A stretch of 1,979 bases of DNA from Escherichia coli (lineage in GTDB: Bacteria; Pseudomonadota; Gammaproteobacteria; Enterobacterales; Enterobacteriaceae): NCBI RefSeq assembly GCF_003334815.1, contig NZ_QOWO01000090.1. One strand, written 5' to 3'. The notes under the pieces were generated by a model that worked only from the letters and a program-made list of their open reading frames with translations, was not told the origin of the DNA and did no database searches. This document shows positions 1-1,979 of this stretch, piece after piece (the stretch's first letter is position 1; every line of letters starts with the position of its first letter). The translations under genes were made by a program, and so were the position numbers.

Positions 1-810
1 AACCAGATGGACCCGGTGTACACGCCGGCGCGAAAAATCCACCTGTACCACTGCGACCATCGCGGCCTGCCGCTGGCGCTTGTCAGCACGGAAGGGGCAA
101 CAGAATGGTGCGCAGAATACGATGAATGGGGCAACCTGCTGAATGAAGAGAACCCGCATCAGCTGCAGCAGCTTATCCGCCTGCCGGGGCAGCAGTATGA
201 TGAGGAGTCCGGCCTGTATTACAACCGCCACCGCTATTATGACCCGCTGCAGGGGAGGTATATCACTCAGGATCCGATTGGGCTGAAGGGGGGATGGAAT
301 TTTTATCAGTATCCGCTGAATCCGGTTCAGTATATAGATTCAATGGGACTGGCATCAAAATATGGACACTTAAATAATGGCGGATATGGAGCGAGACCCA
401 ACAAACCGCCTACGCCCGATCCAAGTAAATTGCCGGACATAGCGAAACAATTAAGACTGCCATATCCTATTGACCAGGCCAGTAGTGCGCCTAATGTTTT
501 CAAAACATTCTTCAGAGCATTAAGCCCTTACGACTACACACTGTATTGCAGGAAGTGGGTAAAACCAAATCTGACTTGTACGCCACAGGATGATTCCCAG
601 TATCCAGGGATGGATACAAAGACAGCAAGTGATTACCTGCCACAGACAAATTGGCCAACAACTCAATTACCACCAGGATATACTTGTGCAGAACCCTATT
701 TATTCCCAGACATTAATAAACCCGATGGGCCAGCAACAGCAGGGATAGATGATTTGGGTGAAATTTTAGCTAAGATGAAACAGAGAACATCGAGAGGAAT
801 AAGAAAATGA
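1..810 (+). CDS. Rhs-family polymorphic toxin, 3' portion (5'-partial; gene begins upstream of the window). Core end is 1-351, variable C-terminal tip is 352-807, stop TGA is 808-810.
   Basis: Frame 1 is open from base 1; the ATG at 7 is an internal Met, not the true start. The translation ends in a typical Rhs core terminus (YDEWGNLL...[45 protein letters not shown]) with the DPxGL-(17 aa)-DxxGL boundary motif, followed by an unrelated 152-aa extension. GC content by eye falls from high-50s percent to about 40 percent at position 352. Confidence 0.9.
352..807 (+). other. Variable Rhs C-terminal tip (putative toxin domain, about 152 aa, unassigned family)
   Basis: Begins immediately after DSMGL (ends at nt 351). 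AT-rich relative to the core. Pro/Tyr/Thr-rich, with 3 Cys (residues 181, 191 and 227 of the track ORF). No nuclease, deaminase or ADP-ribosyltransferase motif recognisable by eye. Confidence 0.6.
794..798 (+). promoter_or_regulatory. Ribosome-binding site for the downstream immunity ORF
   Basis: GAGGA lies 8 nt upstream of the ATG at 807, inside the 3' end of the toxin CDS. Confidence 0.45.
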
Positions 811-1376
811 AAAGAGTTTTGTTCTTTTTGCTGATGATATTTGTTAGTTTTGGTGTTATAGCTGATTGCGAAATACAAGCTAAAGATCATGATTGTTTTA
901 CTATTTTCGCTAAGGGTACTATTTTTTCCGCGTTTCCTGTCTTAAATAATAAAGCCATGTGGAGATGGTATCAGAATGAGGACATCGGTGAGTATTATTG
1001 GCAAACAGAACTGGGTACATGTAAAAATAATAAATTCACACCAAGCGGGGCGAGACTCTTAATTCGCGTCGGGTCACTACGCCTTAATGAAAATCATGCC
1101 ATCAAAGGAACGTTGCAGGAGTTGATAAATACAGCAGAAAAAACGGCGTTTCTCGGCGATCGGTTTAGAAGTTATATAAGAGCGGGTATCTATCAAAAAA
1201 AGAGCAGTGATCCAGTTCAGTTGTTGGCAGTCCTTGATAATTCAATCATGGTAAAATATTTTAAAGATGAGAAACCAACTTATGCTCGAATGACAGCACA
1301 TCTCCCGAACAAAAATGAGTCTTACGAATGTTTAATAAAGATACAGCATGAACTAATTCGTAGTGAAGAGAAATAA
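807..1376 (+). CDS. Putative Rhs immunity protein (189 aa) with predicted N-terminal Sec signal peptide; function inferred from position only
   Basis: The ATG at 807-809 overlaps the toxin TGA at 808-810 (ATGA). A GAGGA Shine-Dalgarno sits at 794-798, 8 nt upstream. The N-terminus [22 protein letters not shown] has a basic n-region, a hydrophobic core and a V-I-A signal peptidase I-like site. AT-rich like the toxin tip. Its position directly 3' of the Rhs tip is the canonical immunity gene location. Confidence 0.75.
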
Positions 1377-1446: not shown

Positions 1447-1488
1447 GCGTTCCATTTGCAGGGAAAGATCACGTAACGCTACTTTTTT
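1447..1488 (+). terminator. Weak candidate Rho-independent terminator after the immunity gene
   Basis: Imperfect inverted repeat GCGTTCC (1447-1453) / GTAACGC (1473-1479) followed by TTTTTT (1483-1488). The stem is short with one mismatch and the loop is about 19 nt, so support is poor. Confidence 0.2.
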
Positions 1489-1590
1489 GTACTAAATAAT
1501 TCGAATTTTAAGTTCAACAATTGAGATACTACTTATTGTCTAAAGCTGTTTTTCATAGCTTATACATGATCAAATACTCCTTACATAAAT

Positions 1591-1596
1591 AAGGTG
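1591..1596 (+). promoter_or_regulatory. Ribosome-binding site of the H-repeat transposase frame
   Basis: AAGGTG lies 5 nt upstream of the ATG at 1602. Confidence 0.4.
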
Positions 1597-1601
1597 AACA
1601 A

Positions 1602-1979
1602 ATGGAACTTAAAAAATTGATGGAACATATTTCTATTATTCCCGATTACAGATAAGCCTGGAAAGTAGAGCATAAATTGTCAGGCATCCTACTATTGACT
1701 ATTTTTGCCGTTATTTCTGGTGCAGAAAGTTGGGAAGATATAGAGGATTTCGGGGAAACACATCTCGATTTCTTGAAGCAATATGGTGATTTTGAAAATG
1801 GTATTCCTGTTCACGATACTATTGCCAGAGTTGTATCCTGTATCAGTCCTGCAAAATTTCACGAGTGCTTTATTAACTGGATGCGTGATTGCCATTCATC
1901 AAATGATAAAGACGTCATTGCAATTGATGGAAAAACGCTCCGGCACTCTTATGACAAGAGTCGCCGCAGGGGAGCGATT
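1602..1979 (+). pseudogene. H-repeat-associated protein / ISAs1-family transposase, N-terminal part (3'-partial, runs off window), interrupted by an in-frame TAA at 1653-1655
   Basis: Frame 3 translation: [125 protein letters not shown]. From memory this matches the N-terminus of enterobacterial H-rpt (ISAs1-family) transposases, which are classically found next to Rhs elements. The stop sits where I recall homologs having Gln (CAA). Confidence 0.8.
1602..1979 (+). mobile_element. H-rpt / ISAs1-family insertion element, left portion. The true left boundary probably lies somewhere in 1377-1601 but cannot be placed.
   Basis: Transposase reading frame as above. No terminal inverted repeat can be defined because the right end is outside the window. 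Confidence 0.6.

What the first reader, a model, noticed from the sequence alone, without database searches (positions are those of the whole stretch)
1602..1655. H-repeat transposase frame interrupted by TAA at codon 18
The frame reads ...[17 protein letters not shown]... and is open from there to the window end. I recall homologs having CAA (Gln) at this codon, so a single C-to-T change would explain the nonsense codon and an inactive element. There is no in-frame ATG soon after; in-frame TTG codons at 1677 and 1695 are the only conceivable restarts. The six-frame track missed this gene because of the stop.
Basis: partly seen in the sequence, partly recalled or inferred. Interest (0 to 1): 0.45.

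Follow-up and report, generated by a model that had tools for sequence, protein, structure and literature searches.

The report
Known nonsense mutation in H-repeat transposase
The stop codon is real: it is a long-known, widespread C-to-T nonsense mutation (Gln18 to TAA) in the defective H-repeat (ISEc1, ISAs1-family) insertion sequence next to the E. coli RhsC element, the same lesion as in the K-12 pseudogene ybfL, so the finding is correct but ordinary.

Summary
An ATG at 1602 follows a good Shine-Dalgarno site. It opens a frame that reads MELKKLMEHISIIPDYR, then TAA at 1653-1655 (codon 18), and stays open to base 1979.

The window is the 3' part of the E. coli RhsC locus: an orphan Rhs tip, then ybfC, then the left end of an H-rpt/ISEc1 element (left inverted repeat at 1459-1476). 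It is 100% identical to at least 30 listed complete genomes, including O26:H11 11368. RefSeq already annotates the gene there as "ISAs1 family transposase; internal stop".

K-12 ybfL carries the same TAA on the same haplotype. The paralogs ybfQ, ybfD, yhhI and ydcC have CAA. All 88 listed homologs that retain this region, down to 65% identity, have Gln here. The stop lies inside Pfam domain PF13808 (residues 8-94).

The exact 81-mer with TAA occurs in 2621 E. coli records. The same 81-mer with CAA occurs in 5. This rules out a sequencing error.

Downstream of the window, genomes with an identical window differ. Some have a full-length ORF whose only lesion is this stop. Others add W253-to-TAG and a 313-bp deletion.

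Verdict: already known, low interest.

The parts
1..810 (+). 3' end of an orphan Rhs core fragment (ybfO-type). It carries the core-end motif DPIGLKGG and a roughly 150-residue C-terminal tip, presumed to be a toxin. This is context, not part of the IS.
   Evidence: TIGR03696 Rhs_assc_core scores 84.7 bits (cut-off 32.5) over residues 38-115. NF041261 RHS_core positions 1147-1261 match, and Pfam RHS PF03527 matches. RefSeq annotates a partial 'RHS repeat-associated core domain-containing protein'.
807..1376 (+). ybfC, 189 aa with an N-terminal hydrophobic leader. Its ATG overlaps the Rhs stop codon (ATGA at 807-810). It is presumed to be the cognate immunity or partner gene. Context only.
   Evidence: ORF list. 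RefSeq annotates 'protein YbfC', WP_000832338.1. It has no Pfam or NCBIfam family.
1459..1979 (+). Left part of an H-rpt / ISEc1 (ISAs1-family) insertion sequence, which runs off the window.
   Evidence: Similarity to other H-rpt copies across E. coli begins at window 1458/1459 (query positions 82-83). The four-copy alignment agrees. The complete K-12/KL53 copy is 1290 bp between its inverted repeats.
1459..1476 (+). Left terminal inverted repeat, CAGGGAAAGATCACGTAA.
   Evidence: In the identical K-12 ybfL copy it pairs with TTTCGTAATCTTTCCCTG at the right end: 18 nt, 89% complementary, 1254 nt apart.
1591..1596 (+). Shine-Dalgarno-like AAGGTG, 5 nt upstream of the ATG.
   Evidence: Read directly from the sequence.
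1602..1652 (+). ORF-H codons 1-17 (MELKKLMEHISIIPDYR).
   Evidence: Translation. Eighty listed homologs start at the same Met with the same motif.
1653..1655 (+). TAA nonsense codon at codon 18; the ancestral codon is CAA (Gln).
   Evidence: The paralogs have CAA. All 88 homologs retaining this region have Q. The exact 81-mer with TAA is in 2621 records, the CAA version in 5.
1656..1979 (+). ORF-H codons 19-126, open to the window end. They encode the rest of the PF13808 domain and the start of the PF01609 DDE domain.
   Evidence: The sequence is identical to K-12 ybfL over ORF nt 1-378.
1677..1679 (+). In-frame TTG (codon 26). It is the annotated start of the K-12 ybfL pseudogene and has no convincing ribosome-binding site.
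1695..1697 (+). In-frame TTG (codon 32). Automatic gene callers use it as the start for this allele ('[15 protein letters not shown]...'). There is no Shine-Dalgarno site upstream.

Best explanation
The window ends in the left part of an H-repeat element (H-rpt, ISEc1; ISAs1 family). This element sits downstream of the RhsC element of E. coli, after an orphan Rhs tip and ybfC. Its transposase gene (ORF-H, normally 378 codons) carries a CAA-to-TAA transition at codon 18. Translation from the native ATG at 1602 therefore ends after 17 residues, inside the N-terminal DDE_Tnp_1-associated domain, and no transposase is made. The mutation is old and inherited, not a sequencing error. It is the allele of the K-12 pseudogene ybfL (the middle one of the three tandem RhsC H-rpt copies). 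It is present in about half of complete E. coli genomes and at more than one locus. The copy in the window is a recombinant: its left end resembles K-12 copy 1 (ybfQ), and its 5' ORF is identical to copy 2 (ybfL). In O26-type genomes its 3' part is that of copy 3 (ybfD), with a further stop and a 313-bp deletion. The most economical account is unequal homologous recombination among tandem copies that collapsed three copies to two (KL53 type) and then to one (O26 type). What is shown: the stop, the ancestral Gln, the family assignment, the population frequency and the mosaic structure. What is inferred: the order of the recombination events and the absence of any residual function.
For: The stop and the frame are. 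The window is 100% identical to at least 30 listed complete genomes, and 3033 genomes cover at least 80% of it. RefSeq annotates 'ISAs1 family transposase; internal stop; incomplete; missing C-terminus' or 'internal stop' alone for the full-length copy. K-12 ybfL has the same TAA and haplotype, while ybfQ, ybfD, yhhI and ydcC have CAA/Gln. NCBIfam NF033564 scores 293 bits for the 252-codon copy and 415 bits for the full-length copy (cut-off 70). Pfam PF13808 covers residues 8-94 and PF01609 residues 102-343. All 84 motif-matching homologs, plus 4 with variant motifs, have Q at this position. The exact TAA 81-mer is in 2621 records and the CAA version in 5; those CAA alleles lie on the same 5' haplotype. 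The mosaic map shows the O26 copy identical to C2 over ORF nt 1-467 and identical to C3 from nt 510. The 313-bp deletion spans ORF nt 768-1080 and removes the HWHVENKLHW region. The terminal inverted repeats are 18 nt and the element is 1290 bp. The KL53 ORF is identical to K-12 ybfL, with the TAA as its only internal stop.
Against: Nothing contradicts the pseudogene reading. Three caveats remain. First, the window's source genome is unknown, and identical windows have two different downstream structures, so I cannot say whether the TAA is the only lesion in this particular copy. Second, the NCBIfam ISAs1 model starts at residue 29, so a product restarted at TTG codon 26 would still contain the whole NCBIfam model region. 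Restart is therefore not excluded by domain content alone, but it would remove about 18 residues of PF13808 and there is no good ribosome-binding site. Third, pairwise dN/dS between copies is low (0.1-0.15). That reflects constraint before inactivation and gives no independent sign of decay after the stop arose.
Confidence: 0.93

Rival explanations
1. Sequencing or assembly error: the true codon in the source genome is CAA and the gene is intact.
For: It is a single-base difference from the paralogs. Five genomes do carry CAA on this haplotype.
Against: The whole 1979-base window is 100% identical to at least 30 independently sequenced complete genomes. The exact 81-mer with TAA occurs in 2621 records, including K-12 MG1655, whose sequence has been re-verified many times.
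Confidence: 0.01
2. The stop is tolerated because translation restarts at an in-frame TTG (1677 or 1695). This would give an N-terminally shortened protein that keeps some activity, for example as a transposase or as a transposition inhibitor.
For: The frame stays open for at least 108 codons after the stop, and for 360 codons in KL53/K-12 ybfL. The NCBIfam ISAs1 model begins at residue 29, downstream of TTG codon 26. The allele is very common. Pairwise dN/dS is low.
Against: There is no Shine-Dalgarno-like sequence at a proper distance from either TTG, whereas AAGGTG precedes the native ATG. A restart would remove residues 8-25 or 8-31 of the conserved PF13808 domain. All 88 homologs that retain this region have Gln here, and 80 of the 84 that match the motif share the upstream start Met. 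In O26-type genomes the downstream part is itself destroyed by W253 TAG and the 313-bp deletion that removes the HWHVENKLHW region. The low dN/dS is explained by divergence that predates inactivation. Transposition of H-rpt has not been observed, even for copies with an intact ORF (PMC3032704).
Confidence: 0.04
3. Programmed stop-codon readthrough or recoding at TAA yields a low level of full-length transposase.
For: None specific. Low-level transposase expression through recoding is known in other IS families (established knowledge, for example frameshifting in IS1 and IS3).
Against: All homologs encode Gln with a sense codon, so the stop is not a conserved feature. The predicted fold of the 5' region is no better than shuffled sequence (z = -0.55), although this fold ends before the stop and does not cover the region downstream of it. 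From general knowledge, UAA is the most efficiently terminated stop codon in E. coli.
Confidence: 0.01

Closest known systems
E. coli K-12 pseudogene ybfL (b0705), the middle of the three tandem RhsC-linked H-rpt copies
   Same: ORF nt 1-378, which is all of the ORF inside the window, is identical and includes the TAA at codon 18. The copy in strain KL53, whose window region is 100% identical, is identical to ybfL over all 1137 nt. The chromosomal neighbourhood is the same: rhsC, ybfB, orphan Rhs, ybfC, H-rpt, ybgA, phr.
   Different: In K-12 a 380-bp H-rpt left-end fragment (ybfQ, with CAA) lies between ybfC and ybfL. In the window the TAA copy follows ybfC directly, and its 5' untranslated part is ybfQ-like. 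In O26-type genomes the 3' part is ybfD-like.
Intact-ORF H-rpt copies YhhI (H-rptB) and YdcC (H-rptE) of E. coli K-12; ISEc1 in ISfinder nomenclature (naming from my own knowledge and from PGAP product names)
   Same: It is the same element. The ORF has 378 codons with the same start Met, and the ORF differs at 28-39 positions over the first 756 nt. The domain architecture is the same, PF13808 plus PF01609.
   Different: These copies have CAA (Gln) at codon 18 and an uninterrupted ORF.
ISAs1 family of insertion sequences (NCBIfam NF033564)
   Same: The transposase scores far above the curated cut-off. The complete copy is about 1.3 kb with short terminal inverted repeats.
   Different: This copy is a non-functional relic. 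It has a nonsense codon, and in some genomes a deletion and a degenerate right end as well.

Membership tests
ISAs1-family insertion sequence (H-rpt / ISEc1) | The transposase matches the curated family model NF033564 above its cut-off. | tested here: met
   With codon 18 read as Gln, the 252-codon copy scores 293.4 bits and the full-length ybfL/KL53 copy 414.6 bits, against a cut-off of 70.
ISAs1-family insertion sequence (H-rpt / ISEc1) | Domain architecture of DDE_Tnp_1_assoc (PF13808) followed by a DDE_Tnp_1 (PF01609) catalytic domain. | tested here: met
   PF13808 covers residues 8-94 (E 1e-31) and PF01609 residues 102-343 (E 7e-31) on the full-length copy, which is identical to the window over its first 126 codons. 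Only PF13808 and the first ~25 residues of PF01609 lie inside the window.
ISAs1-family insertion sequence (H-rpt / ISEc1) | Short terminal inverted repeats bounding an element of about 1.2-1.5 kb. | tested here: met
   The left repeat CAGGGAAAGATCACGTAA is at window 1459-1476. In the K-12 ybfL copy it pairs with the right end (18 nt, 89%), giving a 1290-bp element, and the same right-end sequence is present in KL53. The right end is outside the window and is degenerate in O26-type genomes.
ISAs1-family insertion sequence (H-rpt / ISEc1) | An uninterrupted transposase ORF, as needed for an active member. | tested here: not met
   TAA at codon 18. O26-type genomes also have W253 TAG and a 313-bp deletion. 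It is a member by descent but a pseudogene.
ISAs1-family insertion sequence (H-rpt / ISEc1) | Target-site duplication and demonstrated transposition. | not testable with these tools
   The right neighbour is another H-rpt copy or a deletion junction, so direct repeats cannot be read. The literature states that transposition of H-rpt has not been observed (PMC3032704).
Rhs element (context of the IS) | Rhs-associated core end (TIGR03696) followed by a variable C-terminal tip and a small downstream partner gene. | tested here: met
   TIGR03696 scores 84.7 bits (cut-off 32.5) at residues 38-115 of the 7..810 ORF. The ~150-residue tip has no family, and ybfC overlaps the stop codon.

The most novel reading that the evidence does not exclude
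The TAA-bearing 5' segment is identical over ORF nt 1-199 in three differently mosaic copies at two chromosomal loci, and it is present in about 48% of complete E. coli genomes. The most novel reading is that this spread is not just hitch-hiking. The allele might be maintained and copied by gene conversion because a restart product from TTG codon 26 or 32, or the 17-residue leader peptide, has a domesticated role, for example damping H-rpt/Rhs recombination or transposition.
Probability: 0.03. Interest if true: 0.35.

Novelty: already known. Interest (0 to 1): 0.07.

Why it matters
It matters little biologically. The finding confirms that this RhsC-linked H-repeat copy is a dead insertion sequence, which reference annotation already states.

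Its practical value is for annotation. The gene should be called a pseudogene with an internal stop. Public protein databases contain many N-terminally truncated "ISAs1 family transposase" entries that start at TTG 1695 (MTIFAVISG...) and derive from this allele.

The tandem H-rpt copies also give a clean small example of unequal recombination collapsing three IS copies to two and then to one.

Tried and rejected
1. Sequencing error. Rejected: there are 2621 exact matches of the TAA 81-mer and at least 30 listed genomes with 100% identity over the whole window.

2. Homologs that start downstream of codon 18. Rejected: PF13808 spans residues 8-94, and 80 of 84 motif-bearing homologs start at the same Met. 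The NCBIfam model does start at residue 29, so that model alone could not settle the point.

3. An RNA structure in the 5' untranslated region that sequesters the start codon. The repeat finder gave two inverted repeats, 1443-1458/1599-1614 and 1506-1515/1605-1614. The first has one arm outside the element. The fold of 1459-1640 is no better than shuffles (z = -0.55). Rejected.

4. Promoter and terminator scan of 1300-1979: counts are near the shuffled expectation and nothing is usable.

5. dN/dS between copies as a test of relaxed constraint after the stop arose. Values are 0.09-0.35 and dominated by divergence that predates inactivation, so the test is uninformative.

6. Literature. The primary description of H-rpt (Zhao et al. 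1993, J Bacteriol 175:2799, recalled from memory) is not held in the library. A search for 'ybfL' returned nothing relevant among the 10 papers listed. Only a secondary statement on H-rpt was found (PMC3032704).

7. Pfam and NCBIfam scans of the Rhs tip and of YbfC found no family.

Full report
**Observation**

The window has ATG at 1602-1604, preceded by AAGGTG at 1591-1596. Translation of 1602-1979 gives [45 protein letters not shown]...RRRGAI. The only stop is TAA at 1653-1655, which is codon 18. The frame then stays open for 108 codons to the window end. The in-frame start-type codons after the stop are TTG 1677, TTG 1695, TTG 1773 and ATG 1881.

**What the window is**

The whole window is 100% identical to at least 30 listed complete E. 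coli genomes, including O26:H11 11368, O103, O112ab and KL53. In 3033 of 5426 genomes one place covers at least 80% of it.

In O26:H11 11368 the surrounding gene order is ybfA, rhsC, ybfB, a partial orphan Rhs core, ybfC, an "ISAs1 family transposase" pseudogene, ybgA, phrB. The window therefore holds three things:
- The end of the orphan Rhs fragment lies at 1-810. TIGR03696 scores 84.7 bits on it.
- ybfC lies at 807-1376.
- The left part of an H-repeat element starts at 1459.

Similarity to other H-rpt copies in E. coli begins precisely at 1458/1459. Bases 1459-1476, CAGGGAAAGATCACGTAA, form the left terminal inverted repeat. In the K-12 ybfL copy this repeat pairs with the right end (18 nt, 89% complementary), giving an element of 1290 bp.

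**Family assignment**

With codon 18 read as Gln, the frame scores 293 bits against NCBIfam NF033564 (ISAs1 family transposase, cut-off 70) for the 252-codon copy. It scores 415 bits for the full-length copy. Pfam finds DDE_Tnp_1_assoc (PF13808) at residues 8-94 and DDE_Tnp_1 (PF01609) at residues 102-343. The stop therefore lies inside a conserved domain and not upstream of a natural start.

**Is the ancestral codon CAA?**

Yes, on three lines of evidence.
- The K-12 paralogs ybfQ, ybfD, yhhI and ydcC read ...PDYRQ(A/T)WK... The DNA alignment shows AGACAAGCC in ybfQ and ybfD against AGATAAGCC in the window.
- Of the 120 best homologs in the large protein collection, 84 match the motif and all have Q. 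In 80 of these it is at position 18 counted from the same Met. Four more with variant motifs (PDIRQ, SNERQ, PYYRQ) also have Q. These homologs come from Escherichia, Salmonella, Citrobacter, Serratia, Dickeya, Enterobacter and Raoultella, and go down to 65% identity.
- Five E. coli genomes carry the same local haplotype (G27, F34, S43) with CAA.

**It is not an error and it is not new**

The exact 81-mer centred on the TAA occurs in 2621 records. The same 81-mer with CAA occurs in only 5.

K-12 ybfL is the middle of three tandem RhsC-linked H-rpt copies. It has the same TAA and is identical to the window over ORF nt 1-378. RefSeq already labels these genes "internal stop".

From memory, Zhao et al. 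(J Bacteriol 1993, 175:2799) described the three RhsC H-rpt copies as defective through deletions or interrupted frames. That paper is not in the held library. A held paper states that transposition of H-rpt has not been observed (PMC3032704).

**Structure and history**

K-12 has three copies in tandem:
- C1 (ybfQ) runs from the left end to codon 79 and has CAA.
- C2 (ybfL) is a complete 1290-bp element with TAA.
- C3 (ybfD) lacks the left repeat, has CAA, carries W253-to-TAG, and has a 313-bp deletion of ORF nt 768-1080. That deletion removes the HWHVENKLHW region.

The window copy follows ybfC directly. Its untranslated left part is C1-like and its ORF 5' part is C2-identical.

Downstream of the window, genomes with identical windows fall into two types:
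- In KL53 the ORF is 1137 nt and identical to K-12 ybfL. The TAA is its only internal stop, and ybfD follows it.
- In O26 11368 and O112ab the copy switches from C2-type to C3-type between ORF nt 509 and 513. It therefore carries the W253 TAG and the 313-bp deletion and abuts ybgA.

The arrangement with the TAA copy directly after ybfC (at least 99% identity over 1377-1700) occurs in 210 genomes. The K-12-like ybfQ arrangement (95-99% identity) occurs in about 2500.

I infer successive unequal homologous recombination, from three copies to two to one. The order of events is an inference and is not shown.

A further full-length TAA copy lies next to yafV, beside a degraded Rhs/T6SS region, in strain E2865. 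It is identical to the window over ORF nt 1-199 and differs downstream. The mutated 5' segment has therefore been shared between loci by duplication or gene conversion.

**Mechanism**

Translation from the native start ends after 17 residues. A restart at TTG 1677 or 1695 has no convincing ribosome-binding site and would lose 18-24 residues of PF13808. In O26-type genomes the catalytic C-terminal third is gone in any case.

The 5' region shows no significant RNA structure (z = -0.55), and promoter and terminator scans are at background. Pairwise dN/dS among copies (about 0.1-0.2) reflects constraint before inactivation and is uninformative about decay.

**Verdict**

One refinement is needed: depending on the genome, the TAA is either the only lesion or one of three lesions. 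The feature is a well-known annotated pseudogene, so the novelty class is "already known" and the interest is low.

Noticed in passing
window 1-1376: An orphan Rhs C-terminal tip (residues ~116-267 of the 7..810 ORF) is followed by ybfC. The ybfC ATG overlaps the Rhs stop codon (ATGA at 807-810), and YbfC has an N-terminal hydrophobic leader. Neither the tip nor YbfC matches any Pfam or NCBIfam family, so this presumed toxin/immunity pair is uncharacterised.
   Followed up: partly
L004 1-2820 and L006 1-2818 (strains VCSW8 and UTAK-6): In these genomes the same ybfO-type tip plus ybfC is attached to a full-length 'RHS element core protein' rather than being an orphan. This suggests tip swapping by recombination at the Rhs core.
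   Followed up: no
L009 (strain KL53) compared with L001 and L010: Genomes 100% identical over the window differ just downstream. KL53 has a full-length ORF-H identical to K-12 ybfL plus a separate ybfD. O26 11368 and O112ab have a single ybfL/ybfD hybrid. In KL53 the main rhsC gene is also reduced to fragments.
   Followed up: yes
L003 3761-6126 (strain E2865, next to yafV): A second locus carries a full-length H-rpt with the same TAA at codon 18. Its ORF nt 1-199 are identical to the window. It lies beside another frameshifted ISAs1 pseudogene, a frameshifted ydcD and a truncated Rhs/tagH.
   Followed up: partly
protein P0023 (E. coli, 346 aa): This allele reads [23 protein letters not shown] 30-nt in-frame deletion has removed codons 9-18, including the TAA, and so re-opened the frame. 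It is a single sequence in the collection.
   Followed up: no
window 1695 onward; proteins P0002, P0005, P0050, P0052, P0061, P0092: Automatic gene calls for this allele start at TTG 1695 ('[15 protein letters not shown]...'). P0092 alone stands for 1249 member sequences. Databases therefore hold many N-terminally truncated 'ISAs1 family transposase' entries that are really this pseudogene.
   Followed up: no
L004, L005, L006 at 3990-4748: Five genomes keep CAA on the TAA haplotype, each with a different downstream mosaic of C2-, C3- and yafV-type sites. This fits retention of the pre-mutation allele better than independent reversions.
   Followed up: partly
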